Part shown: positions 32,642 through 64,000 of the stretch, piece by piece
Layout: every line of letters begins with the position of its first letter
Position numbering within the stretch: position 1 is the first letter of the stretch
DNA from: Betaproteobacteria bacterium
GTDB lineage: Bacteria; Pseudomonadota; Gammaproteobacteria; Burkholderiales; UBA3065
Length of the DNA: 64,000 bases
Direction of reading: 5' to 3'
Assembly: GCA_027490755.1 (NCBI GenBank)
Contig: JAIXXL010000021.1
Coordinates: forward strand, 25,675 to 89,674
Notes under the pieces: model-generated
Told to the model about the DNA's origin: nothing
The model's input: the letters and a program-made list of their open reading frames with translations, nothing else
Database searches by the model: none
Translations under genes and position numbers: made by a program

Positions 32642-32644
32642 CAT

Positions 32645-32990: not shown

Positions 32991-33037
32991 TCGCCGAGAA
33001 GTCAGGCACGTAAAGTAGTTTTACGGCGATACCTTGA

Positions 33038-33961: not shown

Positions 33962-34189
33962 GACGGATTAAGTAATACATGTTGTGATTGGTCTATGGTG
34001 AAGTAGTAGTAGGCCCCAACCAGCACGACTTGGCATCATCAGGCAGCACCGATTGGCTCGACACATGATCGAGCACCGTAGGGAGCAACACAGAAGATGC
34101 TGCGCAGCTGCATGTACTGACCTGCGCTTTCCTGAAGGCCTCACAAATCGATGCCTGCGCCTTTTTGGTGGTGGGCTCAGGAGGTACAC

Positions 34190-51246: not shown

Positions 51247-52161
51247 GTGGTCGGCAAAGGCACTGGGGCGGGAGACGTCTCTTCCGGGCGTGAGGGGGCG
51301 GTTGTCGTGATCGGGGTGATGACCGGTGCCGCGGTCTGGGGCTTGGTCTGGTATCCCTACCGCGCGCTTGAGGCCGCCGGGTTCTCTTCTACCGCATCGA
51401 CGGCGCTGACCTACGCCATCAGTCTGGCCGTTGGCGTCGCGTTGTTCGGCACCCGGCTCGGCGAGCTGCGACGGCACTGGCGCGCGGTGCTGCTGATCGC
51501 GGTCATCGCCGGCTGGACCAATCTTTCCTATGTGCTCGGCATGGTCGGCGGCGAGGTCATGCGCGTGCTGCTGTTGTTCTACCTGGCGCCGCTGTGGACC
51601 GTGATTCTTGCGCGCATCGTGCTCGGCGAGCGGCTGACGCTGCAGTCCGGTGTACTGGTCGCGCTGTCGCTGGCGGGCGCCCTGATCATGCTCTGGCCGG
51701 AGCAGGGCCTGCCCCTGCCGGCCAATGCGGCCGAATGGTTCGGCGTGACCGGCGGCATGAGCTTCGCCAGCATGAACGTGCTGTCGAAGGGCGCAGACCA
51801 GGTGAGCATCGAGACCAAGTCGGTGGCGACCTGGGCAGGCGTCCTCATCGTGTCCGCCATCTGGCTGGCGGTGGGCGGGGGGGCGTGGGCGGTGCCGGCG
51901 GCCGGCTGGGCGGAGTGGCTGATCCTCGTCCTGCTTGGTGTGGCGATGTTTGCCAGCACGGTGATCATTCAACACGGCATCCAGCGGGTCCCGGCCAATA
52001 CCGCGATCGTTCTGTTCCTGATCGAGCTGGTGGCGGGTGCGGTGTCCGCGGCGTTGTTGTCGGACGAGATGCTGCGGCCACAGGACTGGCTGGGTGGGTC
52101 GCTGATCATCGGCGCGAGTCTGGTGGCTGCGGCGAGAAAGGTAGGGGGCAGACGAGATTGA
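51247..52161 (+). CDS. EamA/DMT-family transporter
   Basis: About 10 TM helices with two EamA-like halves. GTG 51247 was chosen so that TM1 ('AVVVIGVMTGAAVWGLVW') is retained. Start uncertain (track ORF begins at 51130). Confidence 0.7.
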   Translation: MVGKGTGAGDVSSGREGAVVVIGVMTGAAVWGLVWYPYRALEAAGFSSTASTALTYAISLAVGVALFGTRLGELRRHWRAVLLIAVIAGWTNLSYVLGMVGGEVMRVLLLFYLAPLWTVILARIVLGERLTLQSGVLVALSLAGALIMLWPEQGLPLPANAAEWFGVTGGMSFASMNVLSKGADQVSIETKSVATWAGVLIVSAIWLAVGGGAWAVPAAGWAEWLILVLLGVAMFASTVIIQHGIQRVPANTAIVLFLIELVAGAVSAALLSDEMLRPQDWLGGSLIIGASLVAAARKVGGRRD

Positions 52162-52241
52162 GTGGACATGAAGCGCAGGTGTCGCTCAGCCGGTATCTGA
52201 CCGGGCCCAGCCTTTTTGGCGCGTGCTCCGGGGCACTGGTC

Positions 52242-54836
52242 ATGATGCGTCTTTCGCCTCAGTTGATTGCCTGGCTGGGTGGTGTAGCCAAGCGCGTTGA
52301 TCTGGCGATTTGGCGAAAGACCCTAGAGCTCGTGCTCGGGCGAGCGCCTGAACCGGCGCGTCACGGGCCCGGCACTGCGCAGACTCTCCGCTGGATCGAC
52401 CACCTGCTCGCGCTCAATGATGCCCTGCGTCTTTACTACTGCATCGCACAGGAGCCAGCGCGCGTCCACGAGTTGTCCTCGACTCGCTTGGTCACTTTTG
52501 TGCCTTGTGATGATTCACAGTTGGGCTTGCGCGCCACTGCCGTATCGGTCGCCATGCTTCTCGACATGCTTGGGCCGCGCCTGGGCAATACCCGCTTCGG
52601 ATCGTTCCAACCACTGGATCACGGCTTGTCTGAACGTTTGCGTGAACGGGTCCGCGCCTGGCGCGAATGGGCCGAGGCCAACGCGCTGAACGTCAACGCC
52701 CGCTGGATCGCGCGCGAGGCTGTTGCGCGGGGCATCCCGTATCACCGTGAACCTGGATCCAAGCTGCTCGTTCGGCTCGGGCATGGTGCGAGCCAGCGGC
52801 GACTCAACGGCCCGTACGTGGACCGGGTGAGCAGCGTTGCCACGCATTGGTCAAATGACAAATGGCAGACCAGCAACCTCTTCGCCGCGCACGGCCTGCC
52901 GACGGCCGGGACCCGGTTGGTCGCCAGTTTCGAGCAGGCTCTGGCCCAGGCTAAGCGGTTCGGCTGGCCGGTCGTCGTCAAGCCGCGTTCTACTGACAAG
53001 GGCGTCGGCATCACCATCAACATCACCGACGAACCCGGCCTGCGGCAAGCTTTTGAGCATGCCACCAGATTTCGCGGGGGTGTCCTCGTGGAGCGCCATG
53101 TATCCGGATATGACCATCGCCTGCTGGTGGTCGGTGGCCGCTTTGTCGCCGCTGCTCTCCGACTGCCCGCACGCGTCGAGGGCGATGGCCAAAGGACCAT
53201 CGCGGAACTTGTCCATGCCCTGAATCTGGCCCGGTTTACGGGTCGGTTGCCAGGCGCCTACCGCTCTGAGGTGCCTGTGGTCCTGGACCATGAAGCGCTG
53301 CGGGTCCTCATAGCCCAGGGGTATGCGCCGGGTGACGTTCCAGCGGCAGGCGCCACGGTCACCCTTCGTGGGAACGCGAATCTTTCGACAGGCGGGAGTG
53401 CCGAGGACGTTACCGAGCAGGTTCACGTCGACAACCGCGCGCTGGCGGAGCAAGCGGCACGCCTCATAGGGCTGTGCACGGCAGGGCTCGACCTGCAGAC
53501 GAGCGATATCAGCCGGTCTTGGCGCGAGGTCGGCGGCGCTATCCTCGAGATCAACGCCGGCCCGGGTCTGCCGGTGCACCACTCGAGAACGTCCCGCTAC
53601 ACGGTACGAAAGGCCATCGTCGACGATCTGTTCCCGGCAGGGGCGACCGGTCGGATCCCCACCGCAGGTGTGACTGGCAGCATCGGCAAGACCACAACCT
53701 GCCGCATGCTTTCGAGCATCCTGAAGCATGCCGGGCACACGGTAGCGCTCACGGGCACCCAAGGCGCCTTCCTCGACGAGCGGCAGTTGCGAAAGGGCGA
53801 TCTGGCGGGGGGGCGGGCGGCACTGTCTCTGCTGCAAGACCCTGCGGCCACCGCCTGCGTCGCTGAGCTGGCGCGTGGGGGCCTCATCCGTAGCGGCTTG
53901 GGGTTGGACGTCCTCGATGTCGGTTCGGTGCTGAATGTGTACGACAACCATGTCGGGCTCGACGGCATCGAGACCCGCGAGCAGATGGCCCGCGTCAAGC
54001 AGTTGGTCGTCAGGCATGCCCGGCAGCTGGCGGTCCTGAACGCGGATGACCCGCTATGTCTGGCGATGAGCGATGGTATGGACCCGACCAGGGTGTGTCT
54101 GGTCAGCGAGGCGATGAGTCCGCGACTGACGGCGCACCTTGAGGCGGGTGGCATGGTCGCGACGATGCGCGACGCGGAACGAGGCCCGCTGCTCAGTTTG
54201 CAACGGGGCGCCGACATTCTGGGGGAGATGCCCGTCGCAGACATCCCGGCGACGTGGGGTGCCAGATTCCGCCCGGCGATGCTCAACGCACTGTTCGCTG
54301 CGGCTCTGGCTCACGGGCTCCGCGTACCGTTTCGGCATATCGAGACCGGCCTGGCGGCCTTTACGTCCGATTACGCCAGCAACCCGGGGCGGACGAACCG
54401 CATCTCGGGTCTGCCGTTCGATCTGTGGGTCGCGTGGTGCGATGGCCCCGAGGCGTGCACCGAGATGTCGCGCTTGATGTCCCGAATCGGGGGCGATGTG
54501 ATAGGGCATCTGGTGATCTATGCGGTTGGCAATCGCCCTGACGCCTTCACCCGCGCCTCAGCAGACGCTGTCGCCGGCGCTTTCGATCGCTACTACTGCA
54601 CCGACATGGAAGAAGACCGTCGCGGACGGGCGTTCGGCGAGGTCGCTGGGCTGCTGGCCGACAGCCTTCGGAAGGCAGGGGTCGCCGACTCCGCGATCGT
54701 CGTCGAGCCCTCCAGCAGTGCCGCCGTAAAAAGGGCCTTGGCCGAGATGCCAGCGGGGGGCATGTTGGTCATCCAGACCTACCATCCCGACACAGTCATG
54801 GCCTCGGTGCGTGCCATGTGGCCCGACGCCGCCTAG
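52242..54836 (+). CDS. Cyanophycin synthetase-like protein (N-terminal region + ATP-grasp + Mur-ligase-like domain)
   Basis: ATG-ATG at 52242 (in-frame GTG alternative at 52179). ATP-grasp blocks 'GWPVVVKPRSTDKGVGI', 'VLVERHVSGYDHRLLVVGGRFVAAALR' and 'AILEINAGPGLPVH'. Mur-ligase P-loop 'GVTGSIGKTTTCRML' and 'VAELARGGLIRSGLGLD...NVYDNHVG', as in CphA. The upstream part of the 1080-aa track ORF overlaps the EamA gene in another frame. Confidence 0.8.
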   Translation: MMRLSPQLIAWLGGVAKRVDLAIWRKTLELVLGRAPEPARHGPGTAQTLRWIDHLLALNDALRLYYCIAQEPARVHELSSTRLVTFVPCDDSQLGLRATAVSVAMLLDMLGPRLGNTRFGSFQPLDHGLSERLRERVRAWREWAEANALNVNARWIAREAVARGIPYHREPGSKLLVRLGHGASQRRLNGPYVDRVSSVATHWSNDKWQTSNLFAAHGLPTAGTRLVASFEQALAQAKRFGWPVVVKPRSTDKGVGITINITDEPGLRQAFEHATRFRGGVLVERHVSGYDHRLLVVGGRFVAAALRLPARVEGDGQRTIAELVHALNLARFTGRLPGAYRSEVPVVLDHEALRVLIAQGYAPGDVPAAGATVTLRGNANLSTGGSAEDVTEQVHVDNRALAEQAARLIGLCTAGLDLQTSDISRSWREVGGAILEINAGPGLPVHHSRTSRYTVRKAIVDDLFPAGATGRIPTAGVTGSIGKTTTCRMLSSILKHAGHTVALTGTQGAFLDERQLRKGDLAGGRAALSLLQDPAATACVAELARGGLIRSGLGLDVLDVGSVLNVYDNHVGLDGIETREQMARVKQLVVRHARQLAVLNADDPLCLAMSDGMDPTRVCLVSEAMSPRLTAHLEAGGMVATMRDAERGPLLSLQRGADILGEMPVADIPATWGARFRPAMLNALFAAALAHGLRVPFRHIETGLAAFTSDYASNPGRTNRISGLPFDLWVAWCDGPEACTEMSRLMSRIGGDVIGHLVIYAVGNRPDAFTRASADAVAGAFDRYYCTDMEEDRRGRAFGEVAGLLADSLRKAGVADSAIVVEPSSSAAVKRALAEMPAGGMLVIQTYHPDTVMASVRAMWPDAA

Positions 54837-54846
54837 CGCCTTCCCG

Positions 54847-56646
54847 TCAGCGTGCGTTCGCCGTGTCGGCGGCGTTGGCCTCGAGCATCGGCTCCAGCAG
54901 TTCCTTGAGGCGGCGGATGACGTTGGTATCCAGGTCAGCTTTGTTGCGCTGCCGCCCCGAGTGATCCTCCACCGTCGTGAAGCGGTCGACAGGGCTGCCG
55001 GTGCGCAGTAGTTCTTCGTTACTCACCACCAAGACGATGCGGTCGACGTCCGGGTCCAGCAGAAGGGCGGTGCAGCGTGCGTAAAGCCCTCGCGCTGTCA
55101 GGACCAACTCGGTTCGGTCGGGCCCGACCGTCCGGTCGTGGTCGGTGATGTAACAGCGCTCGTTGCTCGCGGCCGCCTCCGCGCGGATTTTCTCGGCGCG
55201 CTTCCAGGCCGACCCACCGCCAAGGATTGCATGGACAGGGATGCGGCCAGCGTGCGGAAGTACCGTCTCGAACATCTTGCGCAACAACGCTCGCGTACGC
55301 GGACCGCCGGACACGAAAGGTGCCGAGTTCACCTCGATGATGACGGCAGAGTTCTCGTGCCAAGGTATGGATGCGTCATCCGTCATAAGGTCCACACCGG
55401 CGATGTCCAGCCCCATCTGCCGCGCGGCCCGCACGCAGATCGCCGCGTTATCCGGGTGCAGATGGTCCGTTACGTTCCCAGATTCACCACCCCACTCTGT
55501 GGATTCTCGCGGGCGCAGGTAGACCCATCGTCCCTCAGTCGGCACAGACTCTACGGTGAGTCCCTGGCGGGAGAGTTCGGCCTCGGCGACCTTGTCGATC
55601 TGCGGCACATTCGATCGCTCCCACAATGGCTTGAGGCTCGCCTGGTGGTTTGCCAGCGTGATGAGCTCTTGTACCGTCGATGTCCCATCGCCCTGAATAC
55701 GTCTCGGAAAGCGCGTCACAGCAAACAGCACGCTGCCGAATCCCACCAGTACACGGTGGCAGATTCCGGGCGCCTGAGCTTCGACGAGGACCCGGCGCGA
55801 CAGTCTGTTTGCAGCCTCGAAGGCGGCGGCGAGGGTCGTCTCGTCGCCGATGCCGGTGGTCACGCCCTCTCCCCGGTCACGGTCGTTGGGTTTCACAACC
55901 ACGGGCCATCCGATCGCACGCGCGGCCTCAGCAGCTTGCTGCTCATCCAGAACCAGATGGTTCAAAGGCACAGGGATCCCAACCTGGCGCAAGATCTGCG
56001 TGGTCAGGGATTTTCTTTGAGCTGCACTTGCACCCAGATGAGAATCGGTGGAGACGTTGCTGCGGTGCAAGCGCATGGCTCTCGCTCCCCAGCCCAGGCA
56101 GTAGCGCGATGCTCCGAGGTGCAGGAAGGGAATGTCAGCGTCGTACGCGGCCCACAAAAGGCCGATCGAAGACTTGCCGCCTTCGCTCATGGTGCTTCGG
56201 ACCGGTTCGATGAACCCATCATGGATGCTCTTCTGCAGGCTCTCGTGGTCTCGTTCCGCAGCCGCGGGTTCAAGCCCCGCTTGCAGGATCCGTATGGCCA
56301 ACTTGTAGGCACTGTTGCGCTGCGCGGGCGGAAGAGGGTCGACGACCGGGACGCGGGCCACCACTTCGAACATGTCGTTCTCACCGGGCACGATCCGAAC
56401 GACAAGCCCGGCCTCGAAGACCGGTGCCCGGGCGGCCCGAAGGAGATGCGCGGCGAGCGCCAGCAGCCGATCGACGAGCAGCGCCGGGGTCGGGCTGGCG
56501 CCGGCCGACTCACCGGGCGGGAGACCAGTCCAACGCTCGAGCACTTGATCGAGTCTGGCTATCTCGCATGTGGTCTGGAGCGTGGCCTTGTCGACCCGGA
56601 GCGTGATGGTTCGCGTCCTTTGGCGGAGGCCGGGTAGGTAGCTCAT
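54847..56646 (-). CDS. CphA2-like ATP-grasp protein (CphA-type N/ATP-grasp regions, vestigial Mur-ligase region without P-loop)
   Basis: 599 aa. 'GKSSIGLLWAAYDADIPFLHLG...CLGWGARAMRL', 'GWPVVVKPNDRDRGEGV', 'VLVEAQAPGICHRVLV' and 'AVIIEVNSAPFV' are paralogous to 52242-54836. At the position of the P-loop it reads 'ILGGGSAWKRA'. Confidence 0.75.
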   Translation of the reverse strand: MSYLPGLRQRTRTITLRVDKATLQTTCEIARLDQVLERWTGLPPGESAGASPTPALLVDRLLALAAHLLRAARAPVFEAGLVVRIVPGENDMFEVVARVPVVDPLPPAQRNSAYKLAIRILQAGLEPAAAERDHESLQKSIHDGFIEPVRSTMSEGGKSSIGLLWAAYDADIPFLHLGASRYCLGWGARAMRLHRSNVSTDSHLGASAAQRKSLTTQILRQVGIPVPLNHLVLDEQQAAEAARAIGWPVVVKPNDRDRGEGVTTGIGDETTLAAAFEAANRLSRRVLVEAQAPGICHRVLVGFGSVLFAVTRFPRRIQGDGTSTVQELITLANHQASLKPLWERSNVPQIDKVAEAELSRQGLTVESVPTEGRWVYLRPRESTEWGGESGNVTDHLHPDNAAICVRAARQMGLDIAGVDLMTDDASIPWHENSAVIIEVNSAPFVSGGPRTRALLRKMFETVLPHAGRIPVHAILGGGSAWKRAEKIRAEAAASNERCYITDHDRTVGPDRTELVLTARGLYARCTALLLDPDVDRIVLVVSNEELLRTGSPVDRFTTVEDHSGRQRNKADLDTNVIRRLKELLEPMLEANAADTANAR

Positions 56647-56782
56647 CGAGATCTTCGCGCGGGTTCGATATAGATACGCCGCAGGATACTTGCTCGCGAC
56701 GCGGCTTTCGAGTTAGCCTGCGGATGCGATGGGGGTCTCGCCCCGCAAAGTAGTTTTTCGCCAACTCTTGAGGGAACCACAG

Positions 56783-56881
56783 ATGCAAAATCAAGCTCCG
56801 CTCGCCCCGTATGGCGCGCTTCGTTTCACTCCGATCTCTACCAAAGTCGGTGGTGGCAAGGGTCTCGACAAGCCCGCCTGA
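56783..56881 (+). CDS. Unannotated 32-codon ORF (candidate precursor/primer peptide)
   Basis: 'gaggga'-N7-ATG. Translation 'MQNQAPLAPYGALRFTPISTKVGGGKGLDKPA'. It ends 20 nt before the HExxH ORF and is too short for the ORF track. Only positional evidence supports it. Confidence 0.3.
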   Translation: MQNQAPLAPYGALRFTPISTKVGGGKGLDKPA

Positions 56882-56901
56882 TCCCCGAGTGGTCCTCCAG
56901 T

Positions 56902-58014
56902 TTGCCATTGCTCGAACCTTGCTTTGCTGAAGGTGCTTCGCTTGACGCGGACATAAACGCCGCGCTTCGTGAAGGGGTGGCATGGTGTGCGCAACAAGCC
57001 GGGCTTGACCCGGCTTGTTGTTTTGATGGCGGGCCGATGCCGTCTGCGTGGTGCGGCAGCCCGGTCGATTTCGCTGCCTATTACGATTGGGCCATAGCCT
57101 TGACGTCGGCCGTCGACGATCCGCCGGCTCCCTGGGAGCCGGCTTCTTCTTCCGGTTCTGATGCAGCGGCGCGGCGTTGGCGTCCCTTTCTGCAACATTT
57201 CTCCGCCGCGTTCGCCTCGTCGGCCCGACCCGCGACCGATCACGCGACCCGTAACGTGTTGGCCGCGCCCGCCGTCGTCACCTTGGGCGAGCCTTGGTTC
57301 GACGCCGCAGCGAGCGAGCGCATCGTCCGCTGGTTGGACCTTGAGCCTGACAACGCCATGGCGCTGGTCGGCCTCAGCGCCGCTGAACTCCACGAGGCTC
57401 GCAGCGATGTCGAGCGCGCATTGGCTGCGTTGGCGGCCTGGGCACCCGGTTTCCACGGCGAGTTCGTCGCGGTGGTGCGGCGGTTGATCGTCGTCAAGCC
57501 GTCTGGCTCGCAGCGGATGACCTTCCGTGCCGCATCTTCGTTTGCGCTGTGGGGCGCTCTGGCCGGCAACCAGCAGGTGCACCCGCGCTGGTGGGACTGG
57601 GTGCCCACCTTGGTCCATGAGACGGCGCACTCGATCCTGTTCGCCCTGTCGCGACACGCCCCACTGGTCGAGAACGACCCAGCGGAGCGTTACGCCTCGC
57701 CCTTGCGCGATGATCCTCGGCCGATCGACGGCATCTACCACGCAGCATTTGTCTCGGCGCGCGAGGCGGTGGCTTTGGGCGAGTGTCTGCAGGCGATCGA
57801 TGCTGGCGTGGCACTTCCCGGAGTGGGTGATGATGAAGTCAGCGCTGTGCGCGCCGACTTTGCCGCGGTGCGGGAGAACTCGGTGCGGTCTTTTCATGAC
57901 TGCGTCGCCGTGCTCGAGCGGCATGCGCGGTTGAGCCCGTCTGGTCGCGACATACTTGATACGCTGCGACGGGAGCTTGAGGCGTTGGTCGGTGCGGCGG
58001 TCCACGCTGCTTAG
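56902..58014 (+). CDS. HExxH-motif domain protein (peptide beta-hydroxylase-like family)
   Basis: 370 aa, TTG start. The central 'PTLVHETAHSILF' HExxH motif sits in a helix-rich protein with no signal peptide, so it resembles the HEXXH-motif domain family rather than a classical zincin protease. Confidence 0.65.
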   Translation: MPLLEPCFAEGASLDADINAALREGVAWCAQQAGLDPACCFDGGPMPSAWCGSPVDFAAYYDWAIALTSAVDDPPAPWEPASSSGSDAAARRWRPFLQHFSAAFASSARPATDHATRNVLAAPAVVTLGEPWFDAAASERIVRWLDLEPDNAMALVGLSAAELHEARSDVERALAALAAWAPGFHGEFVAVVRRLIVVKPSGSQRMTFRAASSFALWGALAGNQQVHPRWWDWVPTLVHETAHSILFALSRHAPLVENDPAERYASPLRDDPRPIDGIYHAAFVSAREAVALGECLQAIDAGVALPGVGDDEVSAVRADFAAVRENSVRSFHDCVAVLERHARLSPSGRDILDTLRRELEALVGAAVHAA

Positions 58015-58087
58015 CTTCGCCAGCCAGCCCCGAGGCTGATCAAGCCCGTGCGGGTTGACTTGCCGCGGCAGCCCTAGCCCGCCAACC

Positions 58088-58999
58088 ATGAACATCCTGC
58101 TCACCGGGGCATCGGGGTATTTCGGCAGCGCGCTTTTGGCCGAACTCTTGCCGGCCCACCGCGCGAACCTGCACCGGGTGACCGTGCTAGTTCGCGGGGA
58201 CCAGGCAGCGCAGTCGGGTCGGTCAGACGTCCCCACGCTGCGCGAGATGGACTTGCACGCGTCGACGCTCCGCTCGCGAGGCATCGATACCGTCATCCAT
58301 CTTGCTGCAGCGCGCTCGTCCACAGATATCCCAGCGCAGAACCGCTCCCTGGAGTTGAGCCGCAGACTGCTCGAAGCCTCAGCGGGTGCAGATGTGAGGC
58401 GCCTCGTCCTCGCGTCCAGTCACGCCGTGTACGGGACACAGCCAACGCCGTGGGACGAGGATGTGACTGTTCCCGCGCCCGTGACCTTGTACGGCTTGGC
58501 AAAACGCGCAACCGAGTTGATGCTCGATGCCAGTCCGGTGTCGACGGTCTCGGCCCGTCTGGCCAAGCTGGTCGGGCCGTCGCCGAGGTTCCGCGTTCAG
58601 CCAAGCGAACTCCCCCACGTCCTCTTGTCGTACGCCCTCAAGGGAAAGCTGGTTGTGATGCGCAACCCTAAACAGCGTTTCGATTTCCTCGACGTGCGCG
58701 ATGCAGTGCAGGGGGTCATCGCGATCGCCAACCACTCTGGGGAGGGGTTGCCAGGTGCGATCAACTTGGGTTCAGGTGGCGTGGTGATGAGTGCGGAGGT
58801 TGCCGCAATGGTCGATGACGTGTTCCGACCAATGGGTTTTCCCCTGCGTTATCAATTCGAGACCGAGAGTACGCCAGCACCGAGGGACTTCGGGATGTCC
58901 ATCAAACTTGCCCACCGTTGCTTGGGGTGGAGCCCGGAAATCGCCCTGCGGATGACGCTTGAAGGTATTGCAGGGCAATGGGCAATACGTGCCCTCTAA
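58088..58999 (+). CDS. NAD-dependent epimerase/dehydratase (extended SDR)
   Basis: ATG 58088: 'MNILLTGASGYFGSAL' (Rossmann GxxGxxG) and catalytic 'YGLAK' (YxxxK). Confidence 0.8.
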   Translation: MNILLTGASGYFGSALLAELLPAHRANLHRVTVLVRGDQAAQSGRSDVPTLREMDLHASTLRSRGIDTVIHLAAARSSTDIPAQNRSLELSRRLLEASAGADVRRLVLASSHAVYGTQPTPWDEDVTVPAPVTLYGLAKRATELMLDASPVSTVSARLAKLVGPSPRFRVQPSELPHVLLSYALKGKLVVMRNPKQRFDFLDVRDAVQGVIAIANHSGEGLPGAINLGSGGVVMSAEVAAMVDDVFRPMGFPLRYQFETESTPAPRDFGMSIKLAHRCLGWSPEIALRMTLEGIAGQWAIRAL

Positions 59000-59038
59000 A
59001 CCCCTGGACCGTGACGCTGGCCCGTCCTGACGACCCTA

Positions 59039-62000
59039 TCAATGAACCCAAGTGCGCAACAGTTCGTGCAGCCCGGTCAGCCTGCTCCGGGTAAGCAGCG
59101 AGGCTTTGTCGGAGTACGCATGCACCTGCTCATCGACGAACTCGACCCGATCGATCTGTCCCAGGGGCATCCCTCTGGCGAGGAACTCGTCGGTCTGCAC
59201 CACGACCACCAGCGCCCCGACATCCTTTCTTAGAACCAAGGCTCGGGTTCGCTCATATAAGACCCTTCCCGACGCCATTGCATGCGTTCGGCCTGACGGT
59301 GCAATTGTACGTTCTGCGCTGCTCAAGAACGCCGCGAGCCCTTTTCTGCAGAGTTCTTGCCATCGTGTCTCCGCCGCGCTCCACGCCGCGTCCCCACCCA
59401 CAAAAGCCTCCACAGGTATCCGGCCTTTGTTCACCAGCAGTCGGTCGAGATACTCGGGCAGGTAGCGGCGCGAGATCTCTCCGCCACCCAGCAAGGGCGC
59501 GTAGTTCACCTCATTGATGACCGCACCGTTCTCGTACCATGGCCGGGTGATGTCGGGGCTGATGATGTCCACGCCAGCGACCTCCAGGCTCATGAGCGCG
59601 GTGGCATCGAGCGCGATCCTCAGGTTGTCCGGATGAAGGTCGTGCGTAACTTCCTCGTCGACGCCGCCCCATGCCGAGGTCTCGATGCGTCGCAGACGCA
59701 CAAAGCGCCCCTTGCCGGGGACCGACTCGGCTAGCCAGCCGTCGCGCTTTAGGGTCTGCACGGCAAGTTCGTCCAGGGCGATCGGGTTGCACTGCCACGG
59801 CGGGATGAGCGACTGTCGCGCCCGTTCTCGCTCGACCAGCTCCCGTACTGTCGATTCGCCGTCCCCGTAGACGCCGATTGGGAGTCTGCGCACGGCATAC
59901 AGCAGCCGACCCGCGGTGATGAACAGCCGATGGCAAACCCCCTCGACCTGCTGCTCGACCAGTACCTGCTTGCCTCGTGATAGCTTGAGCGCTGCCGCGA
60001 ACGCAGCGTCGAGTGTCTCTGCATTGACATCGACGCTGACGCCTTCGCCACGCTCGCGGTCGGCCGGTTTCACGACCACCGGGTAACCCAGCCGGTCGGC
60101 GATCTGCTGCGCTTGTTCGCGTGCGCGCGCAACCCCGTGCCGCGGCGCTGGCAGACCTGCTTCGCGCAACAACTGCGCGGTCACGCGCTTGTTCTCTGTC
60201 AGCGCCATGCCGAAGACCGAATCCCGGTCGGTCGTGCTCCGGTCGATCCTCCGTGCCCGTTCACCCCAGCCCAATTGGTAGATGCCGCCGCTGATCGGTC
60301 GGAACGGTACGCCAGTCTCCCGCGCGACACGGAGCACCTCGAACGTGGATTTCCCGGCAGATACAGCTTGGGCGTGGCGCTTTACCAAGCTTTCATAGAT
60401 CTTTGCAAAGAACCCTTCGCGGAGCGAGGCATCTGCAGGGTCGGCGTTGTTCGCCCATTTGGCGACGGCGGATGCCTGCTTGAGAACATCCTGCAACACG
60501 CTATTTGGCGCCGCCTCGGTACCATTCAGACGGATAGTGGCTTGCCAACGCCCAGCGCGTGCGGTGTCAGGCTGACAGGTGAGGACCATCGGCTCATCAA
60601 ACATCGGCACTCGGACCGCATGCAGCAGGGCCAAGGCAAACCGCAAGACGCCGTGCAGCCAGAATCGGGCCCGCTCCTCTGTCCCCGAGGGAACCGTCTG
60701 GGGTTCCTCTGCGCGACCCGCATGGCCCGCGAGCAGTGTCAGCCAAGCCTGGAGTCTTAAGGCGTCTGGCTGGGCAGGGGGCTCGAAAGCCACATTCAGC
60801 GTTCCATTGGTGGCGACATGCGGCGCAGATGCCATTGGGGTCTTGCCACTCGTGGCCCCGGTCAAGTACTTGTGGAGCAGGGCCTGCACCGCATCGTGCT
60901 GGATCTTCCCTTGCTCGTTGCGGGGTATGCGATCAACCACCACTGCAGCGTGCAGCGCATGTGCCCCCAATCGTTCTTTCACATGCTCGACCAGGTGCGG
61001 CGGAGCGGCATCCATGGCGCGCCTGAGTTCGACAAGTGCCACAGGGACGTCCTGTAGAACAGAGTGCCGTATTGGCATGACGTGCGCGTCAGCGACAGCG
61101 GGGTGTGTCCGTAGGCACTCCTCCACCTCGGCGGGGTAGAGGTTGACGCCGCTGATGATCATCATGCCGTCGGCTCGACCGCGGTGGACGAGTTGCCCGC
61201 CAGGGGTCAACAAGCCTATATCGCCCGTCGCAAACCAGCCCTTCTTGAAAACGCGGCGGTTGTGTTCTCCCTCACCCACATAGCCGCAGATCGCAGCCGG
61301 GGAGTGGATCTCGATGAGGCCTTCTTGTCCATCAGGTAAGCGCTTGCCGTGCGCATCGACGACCCGCAAGCGGAAACCCGGGAGGGGGCTGCCCACGCCA
61401 CCGGGAAGCGTAAAAACATCCTCTGGCCTGGTTATCGTCGATGTGTGTGTCTCGTTGGTGCCGTAGAACAGGAACAGGTTGGGTGTCAGGCGGTCACGGA
61501 TCCTCTGGCGCAGGCCCATCGATACTGTTGAGCCTCCGATCATCAGGGCGTGCAGTCCAGCCAAGGGGCCCTTTCGCTCATTTTCAGGCTTCCTCAGCAT
61601 CAGCTCGGCGTGGAAGGCCGTGCCGTAGACAGCAGAGACTTGGCCAGACGTGACGAGAGACTCGAAATCGAACGCACCTGGTTTGCCAAGAAACACGCTG
61701 GCGCCTATGGCAAAGGCCTCGAGGCAACGTTGTTTGGCGGCATAGAAATGCATGCTCACCAAGCTGAGCAATGAGTCTTCGGGCCCGTATGGGAGCCACT
61801 TTGGCCCCAGGTTTGCGCGGGTGAGCTGTTGTCGATGGGTCACCGGTATGACCTTCGGCACGCCTGTGGACCCAGACCCGGTCACGTAGAGCCACGGTTG
61901 GTCGGCCACGTCTTCAGCGGCCGGTGGGACAGAGTCAGGGTCACCCGAGAGGGTCCCGAAGTCGATCGTGGGTAGGCCGTATGCCTTTGATTGAGGGGTG

Positions 62001-62356
62001 GCGTCGCCAGTCAGGATCGTGGCGGCGCTCGTGAGTGACAGCTGGCGTCGTGCATGTTCTTCGGGAGTCGAACTTGCGAGGCTCAGCGAGGTTGCACCAA
62101 TGTGCGCGAGTGCGAGCATTGCGACCAGATGGTCCAAAGGATCGTCCAGCGCTATGGCTACGGTACTACCCGTAACAATCCCGTATGCAAGCAGTCCGGA
62201 AGCGGTGGCGGCGACCCGCTGTTGCAATTCCACATAGGTGAGACGTTGGTCCGAGGTGGCGACAGCCGCCACGCCGGGATGCTGAATTGCCTCCCGGGAG
62301 AGGAGGCTTACGATGTTCTGTGACACTAGGGGGCTCTGCGGTGGTCGGCTAGGCAA
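59039..62356 (-). CDS. Fusion protein: ANL-superfamily adenylate-forming domain + CphA-like N/ATP-grasp module
   Basis: N-terminal approx. 500 aa: 'YVTGSGSTGVPKVIPVTH', 'FYGTNE', 'GWFATGDIG', 'GRADGMMIISGVNLYPAEVEE' and 'PRNEQGKIQ' (AMP-binding core motifs). C-terminal approx. 580 aa: 'GKSTFEVLRVARETGVPF...QLGWGERARRI', 'GYPVVVKPADRERGEGV', 'VLVEQQVEGVCHRLFI', 'AVINEVNYAPLL', then a P-loop-less region 'FVGGDAAWSAA'. An alternative GTG start at 62326 overlaps the GT stop (tagtg). Confidence 0.8.
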   Translation of the reverse strand: MPSRPPQSPLVSQNIVSLLSREAIQHPGVAAVATSDQRLTYVELQQRVAATASGLLAYGIVTGSTVAIALDDPLDHLVAMLALAHIGATSLSLASSTPEEHARRQLSLTSAATILTGDATPQSKAYGLPTIDFGTLSGDPDSVPPAAEDVADQPWLYVTGSGSTGVPKVIPVTHRQQLTRANLGPKWLPYGPEDSLLSLVSMHFYAAKQRCLEAFAIGASVFLGKPGAFDFESLVTSGQVSAVYGTAFHAELMLRKPENERKGPLAGLHALMIGGSTVSMGLRQRIRDRLTPNLFLFYGTNETHTSTITRPEDVFTLPGGVGSPLPGFRLRVVDAHGKRLPDGQEGLIEIHSPAAICGYVGEGEHNRRVFKKGWFATGDIGLLTPGGQLVHRGRADGMMIISGVNLYPAEVEECLRTHPAVADAHVMPIRHSVLQDVPVALVELRRAMDAAPPHLVEHVKERLGAHALHAAVVVDRIPRNEQGKIQHDAVQALLHKYLTGATSGKTPMASAPHVATNGTLNVAFEPPAQPDALRLQAWLTLLAGHAGRAEEPQTVPSGTEERARFWLHGVLRFALALLHAVRVPMFDEPMVLTCQPDTARAGRWQATIRLNGTEAAPNSVLQDVLKQASAVAKWANNADPADASLREGFFAKIYESLVKRHAQAVSAGKSTFEVLRVARETGVPFRPISGGIYQLGWGERARRIDRSTTDRDSVFGMALTENKRVTAQLLREAGLPAPRHGVARAREQAQQIADRLGYPVVVKPADRERGEGVSVDVNAETLDAAFAAALKLSRGKQVLVEQQVEGVCHRLFITAGRLLYAVRRLPIGVYGDGESTVRELVERERARQSLIPPWQCNPIALDELAVQTLKRDGWLAESVPGKGRFVRLRRIETSAWGGVDEEVTHDLHPDNLRIALDATALMSLEVAGVDIISPDITRPWYENGAVINEVNYAPLLGGGEISRRYLPEYLDRLLVNKGRIPVEAFVGGDAAWSAAETRWQELCRKGLAAFLSSAERTIAPSGRTHAMASGRVLYERTRALVLRKDVGALVVVVQTDEFLARGMPLGQIDRVEFVDEQVHAYSDKASLLTRSRLTGLHELLRTWVH

Positions 62357-63582
62357 TGCTGTACCCGCTCCATCAGCCGGTCGCCATTGCTTTGTAGATC
62401 ATGAAGTTTTCGCCCGGCCCCTCGAGCGCGGTCAACGTGGCGCCCATACACGGCCTCATCGTCAAACAACTCCTCCAGTCGTTGCGAAACATGCTCGACG
62501 ATTTCTTGGGGCACTAACCTTAAGTAGGGGGCTTCCTGGTACTCGGGCGGGAAGGCTATTGTCTCGCCGCCCTCCCCAAGTATCTCCGGGATACCGCCGG
62601 AGGTGCTGCCGATAACCGGGATACCATTCAGCAAAGCCTCAACGACCACGCGGGGACCGCTGTCCCACCAAAGGCTGGGGGCCAGAAGCACGCGAGCGCG
62701 GCCGTAAACCGGGCGCATATCCCGGGTGTTTGGGGTTAGGAGGACGTTTCGGACCTCATCCGGATCGATGCCCGTCTGGCTGGCGACGCTTTCAAGTAAG
62801 GCCAGCCATGTCGCGCGCGTGTCGACCACCTCAAACGGTATGTCTGGTCGACGCTGCGCCATGTGCAGGATCAGTTGAGCGACGAACACGCCTCCTTTGG
62901 CAGGTATCGGGTTGATAAACAGAACCCGCTCCCGCCTGTGAGCGTTCGCTGTGACCGGTGCCGGGTCTACGAAGGTCCCGAGCGGAATCATGTGGTAGCC
63001 CTCGCGCTGGCGATACATCTCAGCCGTTGCGCGGGTGTCGGTGAAAATGAAGTCGACATCTCTACACCATGTTGTTCCCCGGTTGTTGCCGTGCATTAGG
63101 AAGACACCTACGGCGATGTTCCTGCGGTGTGCCTCGTTCGCCGTCAACAGTGTGATGAGGGAGTTGTCGAAGAACAAGACGAGATCTGGCGAGTCTGCAT
63201 CGAGCAGGCGGCAGTACTCATCGAACCAGCGTTGCTCCTCGAAAGAGAGCATCAGCCGGCGCTGGCTGCGCTCGGTGACAAGGAGGCGGTGTCGTAGCAA
63301 GCCGTCGGGCACCTCGACGAATCTCCCTTTCTGTGCAAGCAGCCTTGGCCACAACTCTGCGCGACTCGCCATGCCCTGGGGGTTGACGAAAACCGTCGCG
63401 CCAATTGCCGCAACGTCGCATCCACGCAGTGCCAATTGGTTGAGGCACTCCCGGACCATCAGGCCGGCTCCGTTTGCGGTGTCGAGGAGCGTATTGGGGG
63501 AGGCCCAGAGGATTCTGATTGGCGGACTCATCTTGGATCCAACAACCGCAGCGGCGAGACTGTATCTAGCAGATTCAATCAC
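62326..63582 (-). CDS. Glycosyltransferase family 1/4 (GT-B)
   Basis: C-terminal 'LLAPSLWWDSGPRVVVEALLNGIPVIGSTSGGIPEILGEGGETIAF' is the GT1 EX7E-type region. The probable ATG start at 63531 gives 'MSPPIRILWASPN'; the track ORF starts at GTG 63582. Confidence 0.8.
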   Translation of the reverse strand: MIESARYSLAAAVVGSKMSPPIRILWASPNTLLDTANGAGLMVRECLNQLALRGCDVAAIGATVFVNPQGMASRAELWPRLLAQKGRFVEVPDGLLRHRLLVTERSQRRLMLSFEEQRWFDEYCRLLDADSPDLVLFFDNSLITLLTANEAHRRNIAVGVFLMHGNNRGTTWCRDVDFIFTDTRATAEMYRQREGYHMIPLGTFVDPAPVTANAHRRERVLFINPIPAKGGVFVAQLILHMAQRRPDIPFEVVDTRATWLALLESVASQTGIDPDEVRNVLLTPNTRDMRPVYGRARVLLAPSLWWDSGPRVVVEALLNGIPVIGSTSGGIPEILGEGGETIAFPPEYQEAPYLRLVPQEIVEHVSQRLEELFDDEAVYGRHVDRARGAGRKLHDLQSNGDRLMERVQHCLADHRRAP

Positions 63583-63754
63583 GGCCCCGGTCCGATGTGG
63601 CAGTGGGAGGACTTGCCCGCGCTACTGTGCCTCTGGATGGGGCTCCTCGCAAGGCGTCGGGCAGATACTCACGATATGCCTGGTGAGGAACGGGCAAAGC
63701 AAGACTGACGAACGAGACGCGGTATCCTGAGCCCCGAAACGGCGCAAACACCTT

Positions 63755-64000
63755 ATGCACCCTCCCATCAATTCACCCGATCGTCCCGCCTTTATCATCT
63801 GGACGATGCAGCGAACTGGTGGTACCAACTTCGCCCGTTGGCTGGATGGCTTCACCGGTAAACCCTTAGCCTTGCATGAACCGTTTATGGAGACACGAAT
63901 CCTCGGTCATGCCTCACGGGGTTGGAGACTAAACCAAAATGTAAGCATGCTTGAGGATGCTTTGTGCGCCGCACTGCACCAGCGACCTAGTTTAAAACAT
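63755..64000 (+). CDS. Hypothetical protein, 5' part only (possible sulfotransferase-like P-loop); continues beyond window
   Basis: ATG 63755, and the frame is open for 82 codons to the window edge. 'RPAFIIWTMQRTGGTNFARWL' is reminiscent of a PAPS-binding 5'-PSB loop. It is missing from the ORF track because no stop is reached. G+C is lower here. Confidence 0.35.
   Translation, partial: MHPPINSPDRPAFIIWTMQRTGGTNFARWLDGFTGKPLALHEPFMETRILGHASRGWRLNQNVSMLEDALCAALHQRPSLKH

What the first reader, a model, noticed from the sequence alone, without database searches (positions are those of the whole stretch)
52179..64000. Atypical cyanophycin-synthetase-like cluster: three CphA-type ATP-grasp paralogues plus peptide-tailoring genes, no cyanophycinase
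Gene order from the EamA transporter gene to the window edge:
- a full-length CphA-like protein (N region + ATP-grasp + Mur-ligase-like domain with P-loop GSIGKTTT);
- a convergent 599-aa CphA-like protein lacking that P-loop;
- a 32-codon ORF;
- a HExxH-motif protein;
- an SDR epimerase/dehydratase;
- a 1105-aa fusion of an ANL adenylating domain to a third CphA-like module;
- a GT-B glycosyltransferase;
- a partial ORF.
The three ATP-grasp modules are clearly paralogous. They share the blocks G[WY]PVVVKP..[DE].G.G[VI], VLVE....G..HR and EVN.AP/EINAGP. Known cyanophycin loci pair cphA with a cyanophycinase (cphB/cphE) and often an isoaspartyl dipeptidase. Neither is visible here. Hydroxylase, SDR, GT and adenylating partners are not part of the described pathway. 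The inference is a modified, branched or capped poly-amino-acid or peptide-polymer product made non-ribosomally by ATP-grasp chemistry. Third codon positions look less G/C-biased than in the flanking dap and ribosomal genes, which suggests horizontal acquisition.
Basis: partly seen in the sequence, partly recalled or inferred. Interest (0 to 1): 0.9.

Follow-up and report, generated by a model that had tools for sequence, protein, structure and literature searches.

The report
Ribosomal peptide cluster with cyanophycin-type ligases
This is probably not a cyanophycin storage-polymer locus: it looks like a previously undescribed gene cluster in which a tiny ribosomally made peptide is hydroxylated and then built upon by ATP-dependent ligases borrowed from the cyanophycin-synthetase family, so it may define a new class of peptide natural product.

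Summary
The gene list is real. The cluster holds three cyanophycin-synthetase (CphA)-type ATP-grasp proteins, one fused to an adenylating domain. It also holds a HExxH protein, an SDR, a GT4 glycosyltransferase and a 32-codon ORF. No cyanophycinase lies in the cluster or in the 10 kb beyond the window.

The HExxH protein is an alpha-ketoglutarate-HExxH peptide hydroxylase, shown by NCBIfam TIGR04267 and by a fold match to ChlBHExxH. The 32-aa ORF belongs to a conserved precursor-peptide family. Its unit, L-A-P-Y-G-x9-K-V-G-x-x-K, occurs one to five times per peptide.

Twenty of 27 independent loci with this peptide and hydroxylase also carry a CphA2-like ligase with N and G domains only. No other gene recurs across these loci.

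These ligases keep the catalytic residues but have replaced the residues that recognise aspartate in real cyanophycin synthetases.

My verdict is a new RiPP-like family, here with extra ligases and sugar and sulfate genes. The chemistry is inferred. I favour acylation of the conserved lysine or extension of the C-terminus. I found no published description.

The parts
51247..52161 (+). EamA-family transporter (304 aa by the gene call; ORF opens at 51130). Possible exporter, or just the flanking gene.
   Evidence: Pfam EamA, 66.9 bits. Gene call on L001. The same aminotransferase-EamA flank occurs in the syntenic relative L089. GC3 is 0.84, like the flank.
52158..54836 (+). Divergent full-length CphA1-like ligase (892 aa) with N, G (ATP-grasp) and M (Mur-ligase) domains and an intact M P-loop. 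Accessory gene, seen only in this genome.
   Evidence: NCBIfam cyanophycin synthetase 576/581 bits, below the curated cutoffs of 850/877. PDB CphA1 E = 1e-121. Keeps N394/S396/T397 and K499 but has E215H, H267K and R458P. Deep lone branch in the tree. No homologue above 38% identity.
54847..56646 (-). CphA2-like ATP-grasp ligase (599 aa) with N and G domains and a truncated, P-loop-less M domain. It is the core ligase of the family.
   Evidence: AF2 model with pLDDT 92. Foldseek gives full-length matches to CphA1 and CphA2, TM 0.63-0.71. Catalytic residues kept and Asp-recognition residues replaced. Adjacent to the HExxH gene and precursor in 20 of 27 loci.
56783..56881 (+). Precursor peptide gene, 32 aa: MQNQAPLAPYGALRFTPISTKVGGGKGLDKPA. 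Carries one L-A-P-Y-G-x9-K-V-G-x-x-K unit. A GAGGGA ribosome-binding site lies 7 nt upstream.
   Evidence: Homologous peptides upstream of HExxH genes in about 30 loci. Nine clear family members, with one to three units, among called proteins of the 1.84-billion-protein library. 15 synonymous against 2 non-synonymous changes in codons 1-23 versus L089.
57037..58014 (+). aKG-HExxH-type peptide hydroxylase (325 aa; ORF opens at 56902).
   Evidence: NCBIfam TIGR04267 at 89.2 bits, cutoff 40. AF2 model with pLDDT 89.5. The only significant PDB fold matches are ChlBHExxH 8S5F (E = 5e-10) and SjiH. H194, E195, H198 and H235 are invariant in 30 homologues.
58088..58999 (+). SDR, NAD-dependent epimerase/dehydratase (303 aa). 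Accessory tailoring gene, or a sugar-nucleotide supplier for the GT.
   Evidence: Pfam Epimerase at 112 bits. Co-directional with, and 41-74 nt after, the HExxH gene.
59039..62326 (-). Fusion of an ANL adenylating domain (residues ~1-495) with a CphA-type N+G ligase (~560-1095). No carrier-protein domain.
   Evidence: AMP-binding 150 bits, AMP-binding_C 45 bits, cyanophycin synthetase model 218 bits on residues 658-955. About 35 full-length homologues, always next to a ~600-aa N+G ligase. A10 lysine G473-K474 is invariant. No GxxS carrier motif.
62326..63531 (-). GT4-family (GT-B) glycosyltransferase (401 aa). Its stop overlaps the fusion gene start.
   Evidence: Glycos_transf_1 and Glyco_trans_1_4. 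Gene calls 3082-4287 and 4287-7574 on L001.
63755..64000 (+). 5' part of a 277-aa gene of unknown family that runs to about 64588, beyond the window. Further on lie a Sulfotransfer_2 gene, two unknown genes, thiG, trmB, a fourth N+G ligase (601 aa) and a trypsin-like protease.

Best explanation
The locus is a RiPP-type biosynthetic cluster.

Its conserved core has three genes. The first encodes a short ribosomal precursor peptide carrying the unit L-A-P-Y-G-x9-K-V-G-x-x-K. The second encodes an alpha-ketoglutarate/Fe(II) HExxH hydroxylase that oxidises a residue of that unit. The third encodes a CphA2-like ATP-grasp ligase. Like all ATP-grasp enzymes, that ligase turns a carboxylate into an acyl-phosphate and couples it to an amine or hydroxyl.

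I infer that the ligase joins a non-ribosomal building block to the peptide. The most likely route is acylation of the nearly invariant Lys of the K-V-G motif. The alternative is extension of a C-terminal carboxylate exposed by cleavage after K-V-G.

In this genome the core carries extra genes. These are a divergent full-length CphA1-like ligase (with an active Mur-type side-chain ligase domain), an adenylating-domain/ligase fusion, a fourth ligase beyond the window, an SDR, a GT4 glycosyltransferase and sulfotransferase-like genes. I infer that they lengthen or branch the appended amino-acid chain, cap it with an adenylated acid, and add sugar and sulfate.

Shown: the gene content, the family memberships, the conservation of the peptide, the co-occurrence, and the residue changes in the ligases.

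Inferred: that the peptide is the ligase's substrate, the site of ligation, and the roles of the accessory genes.
For: - HExxH protein: TIGR04267 at 89 bits against a cutoff of 40. Its fold matches only ChlBHExxH and SjiH. All characterised members of this family act on RiPP precursors (PMC12636437, PMC13060819, PMC12707348).
- The small ORF is under purifying selection.
- It is one of a family with 41 distinct repeat units in about 30 loci. L2, P4, Y5 and G6 are invariant or nearly so; K16 occurs in 39 of 42 matches and G18 in 40 of 42 (one of the 42 is a chance match).
- Multi-unit members occur among called proteins.
- Of 27 non-redundant loci with peptide and HExxH gene, 20 have a CphA-type N+G ligase. 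The 7 without have under 2 kb of upstream sequence.
- HExxH and the ligase are the only recurrent gene families. Accessory genes vary, as is usual for RiPP families.
- HExxH-associated ligases form their own clade.
- They keep K220, K261, R309, R323 and E450. They replace the Asp-binding N394/S396/T397/R458 and H267 with S/T, E/A, W, G and R (residue roles from PMC9427784). Loss of R458, which holds the alpha-carboxylate of the incoming free amino acid, fits a peptide-bound nucleophile.
- A second precursor subfamily (L148, L009) lacks APYG but keeps K-[VIL]-G-K, which points to that motif as the common site.
Against: - No product or enzyme activity has been observed.
- The peptide has no conserved acidic residue, so the carboxylate partner is unknown.
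- One variant (L118) has T in place of the Lys although a ligase is present.
- C-termini are highly variable, which argues against direct C-terminal extension of the unprocessed peptide.
- The ANL-ligase fusion plus a ~600-aa ligase also occur without a HExxH gene or peptide (L003, L006). They may therefore make a separate small peptide.
- The CphA892, SDR, GT and sulfotransferase genes are found with the core only in this genome. Their participation rests on adjacency and operon structure alone.
- No dedicated protease or ABC exporter is found in the window.
Confidence: 0.7

Rival explanations
1. Composite locus. Only the three-gene core (peptide, HExxH, 599-aa ligase) forms a pathway. The CphA892 gene is an independent, divergent cyanophycin synthetase co-transcribed with EamA. 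The ANL-ligase fusion makes its own small N-acyl peptide. SDR, GT and the sulfotransferases belong to a glycan pathway.
For: - CphA892 overlaps the EamA stop and is convergent with the core ligase.
- It keeps the Asp loop ANLSTGG and the M P-loop.
- The syntenic relative L089 lacks CphA892, the fusion, the SDR and the GT, and has other accessories.
- The fusion plus an N+G ligase occur alone in L003 and L006.
- Beta-proteobacterial cphA1 genomes rarely have a cyanophycinase.
Against: - All these genes share the lowered GC3 of 0.71-0.76.
- They lie between the same flanking markers (aminotransferase/EamA and thiG/trmB) that bound the cluster in L089.
- GT and fusion are translationally coupled, and the SDR follows the HExxH gene.
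- L009 also combines a fusion, an N+G ligase and a HExxH gene.
- CphA892 fails the curated cyanophycin-synthetase cutoffs and lacks R458, H267 and E215.
Confidence: 0.25
2. Scaffold-peptide pathway. The small peptide is a carrier, as LysW is for LysX/ArgX or as the scaffold peptides of pearlins are. A small molecule is assembled on it by the ligases, is oxidised, and is then cleaved off. The final product is therefore a small amino-acid-derived metabolite and not a modified peptide.
For: - The ATP-grasp clade to which these ligases belong (CphA-G, GshB-type, RimK, Ngg) extends C-terminal or alpha-carboxylates.
- Repeat units could each deliver one product.
- A trypsin-like protease lies near the fourth ligase.
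- Precedents are from my own knowledge: LysW/LysX, and TglA/TglB for 3-thiaglutamate.
Against: - The conserved element is an internal 18-residue unit, not a conserved C-terminus.
- C-termini vary freely.
- No protease is part of the conserved core.
Confidence: 0.12
3. The product is a non-ribosomal, modified poly-amino-acid polymer made by the three CphA paralogues and tailored by the other enzymes. The 32-codon ORF is irrelevant or regulatory.
For: - CphA family membership of all three ligases.
- N domains, which anchor the growing chain in CphA1, are retained.
- CphA892 has both active sites.
Against: - The small ORF is conserved as protein and tightly linked to the HExxH gene and the ligase across many loci.
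- aKG-HExxH enzymes are only known on ribosomal peptides.
- The Asp-recognition residues are lost in two of the three ligases.
Confidence: 0.08

Closest known systems
Cyanophycin synthetases CphA1 and CphA2 (PDB 7LG5, 7LGM, 7LGN, 7WAC; 7TA5, 8FXH)
   Same: Same fold and domain order. The 599-aa protein aligns full-length with CphA2 (N, G, truncated M) and the 892-aa protein with CphA1. The ATP-grasp catalytic residues K220, K261, R309, R323 and E450 are conserved.
   Different: - Identity is only 20-27% to the solved structures for the N+G ligase.
- Scores fall below the curated family cutoffs.
- The Asp-binding loop ANLSTGG is replaced by ESTEWGG.
- R458 becomes G/S, H267 becomes R, and E215 is not conserved.
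- These ligases occur in Pseudomonadota next to a precursor peptide and a hydroxylase, not next to cphB or a dipeptidase.
aKG-HExxH RiPP oxygenases: ChlBH, BipH/BpmH, PflC/PosC, and the nitrilobacillin Pro hydroxylase
   Same: Same family (TIGR04267/IPR026337) and same fold. The gene lies directly after a short precursor gene.
   Different: - The known members partner with radical SAM, MNIO, nitroreductase or asparagine-synthetase-like enzymes.
- None of the papers read here mentions an ATP-grasp or CphA-type partner.
- The target residue here is unknown. Candidates are Pro, Tyr, Lys, Val or Gly of the unit.
Graspetides (microviridin-type omega-ester/amide peptides)
   Same: A ribosomal peptide, sometimes with several core repeats, is modified by ATP-grasp ligases.
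   Different: - The ligases here are CphA-type, not MdnB/MdnC-type.
- The precursor unit has no conserved Asp or Glu to be activated, so an intramolecular side-chain macrocycle of the graspetide kind is unlikely.
Pheganomycin pathway (ATP-grasp PGM1 ligating a non-proteinogenic acid to ribosomal peptides). From my own knowledge: Noike et al. 2015.
   Same: The logic I propose: an ATP-grasp activates a non-ribosomal carboxylate and couples it to an amine of a ribosomally made peptide from a multi-core precursor.
   Different: I did not compare sequences with PGM1. That pathway has no HExxH hydroxylase, the precursor is different, and the acceptor is the N-terminal amine.
Dapdiamide DdaG (ANL) plus DdaF (ATP-grasp), and Ngg, the GNAT-ATP-grasp N-acetylglutaminylglutamine synthetase (TIGR03103)
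   Same: An acylating or adenylating enzyme is paired or fused with an ATP-grasp that extends the resulting N-acyl amino acid. TIGR03103 is the second-best family for all three ligases (E = 1e-35 to 1e-50).
   Different: Here the ANL domain is fused to a CphA-type N+G module. Scores are far below the Ngg cutoff of 569 bits. The dapdiamide comparison rests on my own knowledge only.
RimK/ribosomal protein S6, and LysX/LysW
   Same: ATP-grasp ligases that act on a ribosomally made polypeptide.
   Different: These are weak matches only (E = 1e-10 to 1e-14, far below the cutoffs). They act on conserved acidic C-termini, which this peptide family lacks.

Membership tests
Cyanophycin synthetase 1 (CphA1), tested on the 892-aa protein | N + ATP-grasp (G) + Mur-ligase (M) architecture with both P-loops | tested here: met
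   Aligns with CphA1 chains over residues 161-873. The M P-loop GSIGKT is present.
Cyanophycin synthetase 1 (CphA1), tested on the 892-aa protein | Score above the curated equivalog/subfamily cutoff (TIGR02068 at 850 bits; NF010623 at 877 bits) | tested here: not met
   576 and 581 bits. The first ~130 residues are unaligned.
Cyanophycin synthetase 1 (CphA1), tested on the 892-aa protein | G-domain residues that bind substrate Asp and the terminal beta-Asp-Arg unit (E215, H267, R309, R323, N394, S396, R458 of TeCphA1) | tested here: inconclusive
   R309, R323, N394, S396 and T397 are kept. E215 becomes H, H267 becomes K, and R458 becomes P. R458 and H267 mutants are inactive in TeCphA1.
Cyanophycin synthetase 1 (CphA1), tested on the 892-aa protein | [quoted passage not shown] | not testable with these tools
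   Needs expression and polymer analysis.
Cyanophycin synthetase 2 (CphA2), tested on the 599-aa protein and the ligase half of the fusion | N + G + truncated inactive M domain | tested here: met
   The AF2 model matches 7TA5 and 8FXI full-length (TM 0.61-0.69). K499 becomes A.
Cyanophycin synthetase 2 (CphA2), tested on the 599-aa protein and the ligase half of the fusion | Conserved Asp / beta-Asp-Arg recognition residues of the CphA G domain | tested here: not met
   Changes across 39 N+G and 25 fusion homologues: N394 becomes S/T; S396 becomes E/A; T397 becomes W; R458 becomes G/S; G456 becomes L/F; H267 becomes R; R269 becomes E.
Cyanophycin synthetase 2 (CphA2), tested on the 599-aa protein and the ligase half of the fusion | Genomic association with cyanophycin metabolism (cphA1, cphB/E, dipeptidase); cyanobacterial distribution | tested here: not met
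   Associated instead with the HExxH hydroxylase and the precursor peptide in Pseudomonadota and metagenomes.
aKG-HExxH peptide beta-hydroxylase (TIGR04267 / IPR026337) | HMM score above the curated cutoff, with the HExxH motif | tested here: met
   89.2 bits against a cutoff of 40. HETAH is present. H194, E195, H198 and H235 are invariant.
aKG-HExxH peptide beta-hydroxylase (TIGR04267 / IPR026337) | Fold of the ChlBHExxH oxygenase domain | tested here: met
   Foldseek against 8S5F gives E = 5e-10, TM 0.54, rmsd 3.1 over 212 columns. The next unrelated hit has E = 0.2.
aKG-HExxH peptide beta-hydroxylase (TIGR04267 / IPR026337) | Hydroxylates (or cleaves) a residue of a RiPP precursor | not testable with these tools
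   Needs co-expression and MS. A precursor gene lies 155 nt upstream.
RiPP biosynthetic gene cluster | A genetically encoded short precursor peptide, conserved as protein, next to the modifying enzymes | tested here: met
   15 synonymous against 2 non-synonymous changes. Family-wide motif. Co-occurrence in 20 of 27 loci.
RiPP biosynthetic gene cluster | Leader/core organisation, a maturation protease and an exporter | tested here: inconclusive
   Only 4-10 residues precede the unit. The units repeat. The EamA transporter is adjacent. A trypsin-like protease appears only ~10 kb beyond the window.
Graspetides | Microviridin-type ATP-grasp ligase and a precursor with conserved Thr/Ser/Lys plus Asp/Glu cross-link partners | tested here: not met
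   The best families are CphA, Ngg and GshAB. No conserved acidic position exists in the unit.
ANL adenylating superfamily (N-terminal half of the fusion) | AMP-binding and AMP-binding_C above the Pfam cutoffs, with the catalytic A10 Lys | tested here: met
   150 and 45 bits. G473-K474 is invariant in 26 homologues.
NRPS module | A carrier (PCP) domain and a condensation domain next to the adenylation domain | tested here: not met
   No PP-binding or Condensation hit. No GxxS motif in the ~60-residue linker.

The most novel reading that the evidence does not exclude
A hybrid of ribosomal and template-independent peptide synthesis. In this reading the ribosomal APYG...KVG peptide acts as a genetically encoded primer or anchor. 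Several cyanophycin-synthetase-type ligases (four in this genome) build a branched, cyanophycin-like isopeptide chain on it, on the conserved Lys or on a newly exposed C-terminus. The chain is then acyl-capped, glycosylated and sulfated. This would be a new RiPP class whose defining enzyme is a repurposed biopolymer synthetase.
Probability: 0.2. Interest if true: 0.9.

Novelty: new variant of a known kind. Interest (0 to 1): 0.8.

Why it matters
Cyanophycin synthetases are known only as makers of a nitrogen-storage polymer. RiPP ATP-grasp chemistry is known mainly from the unrelated graspetide ligases.

A widespread family links a CphA2-like ligase, an aKG-HExxH oxygenase and a repeat-unit precursor peptide. 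It comprises about 30 loci, about 45 ligase clusters and about 70 HExxH clusters in public data. Such a family would show that the cyanophycin-synthetase scaffold has been recruited to modify ribosomal peptides.

It offers three things:
- a new precursor motif for genome mining;
- a new substrate class for aKG-HExxH enzymes;
- in this genome, an unusually rich set of up to four CphA-type ligases plus adenylation, sugar and sulfate genes for making hybrid ribosomal/non-ribosomal peptides.

The three-gene core is small enough to test directly in E. coli.

Tried and rejected
- An exact-sequence lookup of the GT with the longest-ORF start found nothing. The called start (401 aa) worked later.
- The genome-collection scan with the fusion alignment returned mostly ordinary cphA loci. 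Only one locus (L009) is related over its full length, and the source organism was not found. Taxonomy therefore stays an inference: a GC-rich proteobacterium, probably a beta-proteobacterium, judged from the dapC-dapD-dapE flank and the nearest relatives.
- The cluster-member lookup gave no names.
- NCBIfam has no model for the precursor peptides or for the four unknown genes beyond the window. Pfam recognises only the sulfotransferase.
- Seven literature searches found no paper joining CphA-type ligases, HExxH enzymes and this peptide.
- No sigma-70-like promoter was found around the small ORF. The terminator-like hairpins at 57000-57017 and 57123-57143 are weak evidence only.
- P0282, a 193-aa hit with six NFNPLAPYGAR repeats, was rejected as a probable translated DNA repeat.
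- RimK, Ddl or carboxylase identity for the ligases was rejected. Those families score 1e-5 to 1e-14, against 1e-59 to 1e-174 for the cyanophycin synthetase models.
- The spliceotide XYG resemblance (from my own knowledge) was rejected, because no radical SAM gene is present.
- A regulatory leader peptide was rejected because of protein-level conservation and the multi-unit homologues.
- I did not scan window positions 1-44,000 exhaustively for a cyanophycinase.

Full report
**Observation**

Gene calls on an identical public contig (L001) refine the coordinates:
- EamA, 51247-52161 (+)
- a CphA1-like protein of 892 aa, 52158-54836 (+), whose start overlaps the EamA stop
- a 599-aa CphA-like protein, 54847-56646 (-)
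- a 32-codon ORF, 56783-56881 (+), with a GAGGGA ribosome-binding site
- a HExxH protein, 57037-58014 (+)
- an SDR, 58088-58999 (+)
- an ANL/ATP-grasp fusion of 1095 aa, 59039-62326 (-)
- a GT4 glycosyltransferase, 62326-63531 (-), whose stop overlaps the fusion start
- the first 82 codons of a 277-aa gene, from 63755 (+)

All three ATP-grasp modules score best to the cyanophycin synthetase models (E = 1e-59 to 1e-174). They score far worse to RimK, Ddl or carboxylases (E = 1e-5 to 1e-14). Their best solved-structure relatives are CphA1 and CphA2. GC3 is 0.71-0.76 in the cluster against 0.79-0.93 in the dapE/dapD/aminotransferase/helicase flank.

**Beyond the window**

A contig from a sister sample (L176) continues for 10 kb past the window end. 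It carries, in order:
- the rest of the 277-aa gene
- a Sulfotransfer_2 gene and two unknown genes
- thiG and trmB
- a fourth CphA-type N+G ligase (601 aa, 45% identical to the 599-aa one)
- a trypsin-like protease

No cyanophycinase or isoaspartyl dipeptidase is present there. That absence says little, however. [quoted passage not shown]

**The HExxH protein**

It has no Pfam hit. It matches NCBIfam TIGR04267, "aKG-HExxH-type peptide beta-hydroxylase", at 89 bits against a cutoff of 40. An AlphaFold2 model (pLDDT 89.5) has only two significant PDB fold matches: the ChlBHExxH alpha-ketoglutarate oxygenase domain (8S5F, E = 5e-10) and SjiH.

Characterised members of this family act on RiPP precursor peptides. 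Reported activities are:
- beta-hydroxylation of Asp and His (ChlBH)
- hydroxylation of Gln plus oxidative or hydrolytic backbone cleavage (PflC/PosC; PMC12636437)
- hydroxylation of Pro (nitrilobacillins; PMC13060819)
- hydroxylation of an ortho-tyrosine residue (BipH; PMC12707348)

**The 32-codon ORF is a real gene and belongs to a peptide family**

A relative (L089) has a HExxH protein 74% identical (BLASTP; 76-78% for the called 312-aa protein). Its peptide is MQNQAPLAPYGALRFAPIATKVGTPPKPSQR. Over codons 1-23 there are 15 synonymous and only 2 non-synonymous differences from the window. After K-V-G the sequences diverge.

I built an HMM from three such peptides and searched all small ORFs of the fetched loci. 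It recovered homologues immediately upstream (rarely downstream) of HExxH genes in about 30 loci.

The unit is x-L-A-P-Y-G-[SA]-[LMV]-x-[FNY]-L-[PA]-[LI]-A-[AT]-K-V-G-x-x-K. L2, P4, Y5 and G6 are invariant or nearly so. K16 occurs in 39 of 42 matches and G18 in 40 of 42. One of the 42 matches is a chance hit, so there are 41 genuine units.

Precursors carry from one unit (this window) up to five (L115). The ORF translations show L100 with three, and L101, L105 and L110 with two each.

A search of 1.84 billion representative proteins with the 32-aa peptide found 12 proteins at E <= 0.001. Nine are clear family members with one to three units: P0274, P0275, P0277-P0281, P0283 and P0284. P0285 also carries units but looks like a mis-called fusion. 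P0282 was rejected as a probable translated DNA repeat, and P0276 (2374 aa, no aligned stretch) was not retrieved.

A divergent subfamily (L148, L009) replaces L-A-P-Y-G with L-[LF]-G-F but keeps K-[VIL]-G-K.

**Co-occurrence**

I fetched 83 non-redundant loci through the HExxH protein. Of these, 27 carry the peptide motif, and 20 of those 27 carry a CphA-type N+G ligase, usually divergently transcribed from the peptide-HExxH pair. The seven without a ligase have under 2 kb of upstream sequence. Four of those seven form a K-N-G/K-I-G subfamily that may genuinely lack a ligase.

All-against-all clustering shows that HExxH and the ligase are the only gene families recurring across loci. Accessory genes differ between loci. 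They include methyltransferases, an FAD monooxygenase, a xylose-isomerase-like TIM barrel, a Rieske oxygenase, a second ligase and MFS/ABC transporters.

L089 sits between the same flanking markers as the window cluster (aminotransferase/EamA on one side, thiG/trmB on the other) but has a different accessory set. This is a variable island at a fixed site.

**The ligases**

An AF2 model of the 599-aa protein (pLDDT 92) aligns full-length with CphA1 and CphA2 (TM 0.63-0.71). The architecture is therefore CphA2-like: an N domain, an ATP-grasp G domain and a truncated M domain.

A neighbour-joining tree of 108 G domains places the window's paralogues in three different clades:
- The 599-aa protein sits in the HExxH-associated N+G clade.
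- The fusion sits in a fusion clade nested nearby.
- The 892-aa protein is a long lone branch at the base of the true CphAs. No homologue above 38% identity was found.

I mapped the functional residues of TeCphA1 (PMC9427784) onto an alignment of 39 N+G homologues, 25 fusions and 53 true CphAs.
- ATP, Mg and acyl-phosphate residues (K220, K261, R309, R323, E450, G398, G399) are kept in all groups.
- The true-CphA Asp-recognition set (N394, S396, T397, R458) and H267 are almost universally replaced in the N+G and fusion families, by S/T, E/A, W, G/S and R.
- The M-domain P-loop lysine is lost in those families.
- The 892-aa protein keeps the ANLSTGG loop and the M P-loop but has E215H, H267K and R458P.

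So two of the three paralogues fail a residue-level test for cyanophycin synthetase function, and the third is equivocal. All three look catalytically competent.

**The fusion**

About 35 full-length ANL/N+G fusions exist in public data. Each sits next to a separate ~600-aa N+G ligase. Some also sit next to a methyltransferase, with no HExxH gene or peptide (L003, L006). One locus, L009 (a Comamonadaceae MAG), has HExxH and a K-[VIL]-G-rich peptide. The ANL half keeps the A10 lysine and has no carrier domain. It therefore acts as a free-standing adenylating enzyme or amide ligase. The pairing resembles DdaG/DdaF of dapdiamide biosynthesis and the GNAT-ATP-grasp enzyme Ngg (my own knowledge; TIGR03103 is the second-best family).

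**Mechanism**

What is shown:
- The core is a peptide, an aKG-HExxH oxygenase and a CphA2-like ligase.
- The ligase clade is distinct and has a remodelled substrate pocket.
- The peptide's most conserved features are P-Y-G and K-[VI]-G-x-x-K, with no conserved acidic residue.

What I infer:
- The oxygenase hydroxylates, or possibly cleaves at, a residue of the unit.
- The ligase couples a carboxylate-bearing building block to the peptide.

Two observations favour the peptide as the nucleophile, through the Lys epsilon-amine. The peptide offers no conserved carboxylate. The ligases have also lost R458, which in CphA1 holds the alpha-carboxylate of the incoming free amino acid. I put this specific step at about 35-40%. 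The alternative is cleavage after K-V-G followed by C-terminal extension, which is the canonical direction for this ATP-grasp clade.

In this genome the extra ligases, the ANL domain, SDR, GT and sulfotransferases would elaborate the appended group. The evidence for their participation is operon structure, shared composition and shared island boundaries. It is not co-occurrence across loci.

**Comparison and novelty**

The locus works partly like cyanophycin synthesis (same enzyme scaffold), partly like graspetide or pheganomycin biosynthesis (an ATP-grasp acting on a ribosomal peptide), and partly like known aKG-HExxH RiPP pathways. It fails defining tests for cyanophycin metabolism and for graspetides (see the membership table).

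NCBIfam release 20 has no model for the peptide and no specific model for the N+G ligase. Seven full-text searches found no description of this combination. I cannot exclude a description in literature outside that library.

I class it as a new variant of a known kind: a RiPP-type cluster with a new class-defining ligase and a new precursor family.

**Verdict**

- Confidence in the RiPP-type reading is 0.7.
- Interest is 0.8.

Noticed in passing
beyond the window: L176 2861-4666 (about window +9 kb): A fourth CphA-type N+G ATP-grasp ligase (601 aa, 45% identical to the 599-aa one). It lies after thiG and trmB and next to a trypsin-like protease. The cluster may therefore straddle two housekeeping genes.
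   Followed up: partly
L148 6977-7135 and about 7330-7503; L009 16690-16911 (-): A second precursor subfamily in ligase+HExxH loci. It has the N-terminal motif DLS[RK]L[LF]GF instead of LAPYG and one or more G-x-K-[IV]-G-K motifs. Example: MNKLVPDLSRLLGFKLAGQVGNDAVVTGPKIGKITDIAMLTGPKIGKLPPPG.
   Followed up: partly
L003 10001-15147; L006 10001-15842: The ANL/ATP-grasp fusion, a ~600-aa N+G ligase and a methyltransferase occur as a compact module without any HExxH gene or APYG peptide. In L003 the module sits next to a TctABC transporter. It may make a small N-acyl peptide of unknown identity.
   Followed up: partly
L111 273-2706; L112 1940-3854; L117; L123: A subfamily has the K-N-G/K-I-G unit variant (for example KLFPYGDVRNSDIVAKNG), a C-terminal V-x-R-L-S-A tail and tandem HExxH genes. 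No ligase is seen on these short contigs.
   Followed up: no
window 7000-9424: A 48% GC patch in a 68% GC genome. It holds a bestrophin-like gene (8167-8883) and an unknown ORF (7438-7893), directly next to a tRNA-His/Arg/Pro cluster (9130-9424, minus strand). Possibly a small genomic islet.
   Followed up: partly
window 32000-35800: A 55% GC patch beside tRNA-Phe (32530-32605). It holds a TetR regulator (33038-33727, -), an unknown ORF (33968-34606, -) and an amino-acid permease (34151-35812, +).
   Followed up: partly
window 24728-26983 (-) / 24749-26854 (+): A long ORF pair of about 700-750 aa on opposite strands. The minus-strand ORF has no Pfam hit, so the true coding strand and the function are unresolved.
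   Followed up: no
window 63755-64000 and L176 6760-9777: Three genes without any Pfam or NCBIfam match (277, 221 and 238 aa) surround the Sulfotransfer_2 gene. The 277-aa protein starts with a PAPS-loop-like RPAFIIWTMQRTGGTNF and may be a divergent sulfotransferase.
   Followed up: partly
protein P0282 (library hit, not in the window): A 193-aa 'protein' made of six NFNPLAPYGAR repeats matched the precursor query. It looks like a translated DNA repeat array and not a family member.
   Followed up: no
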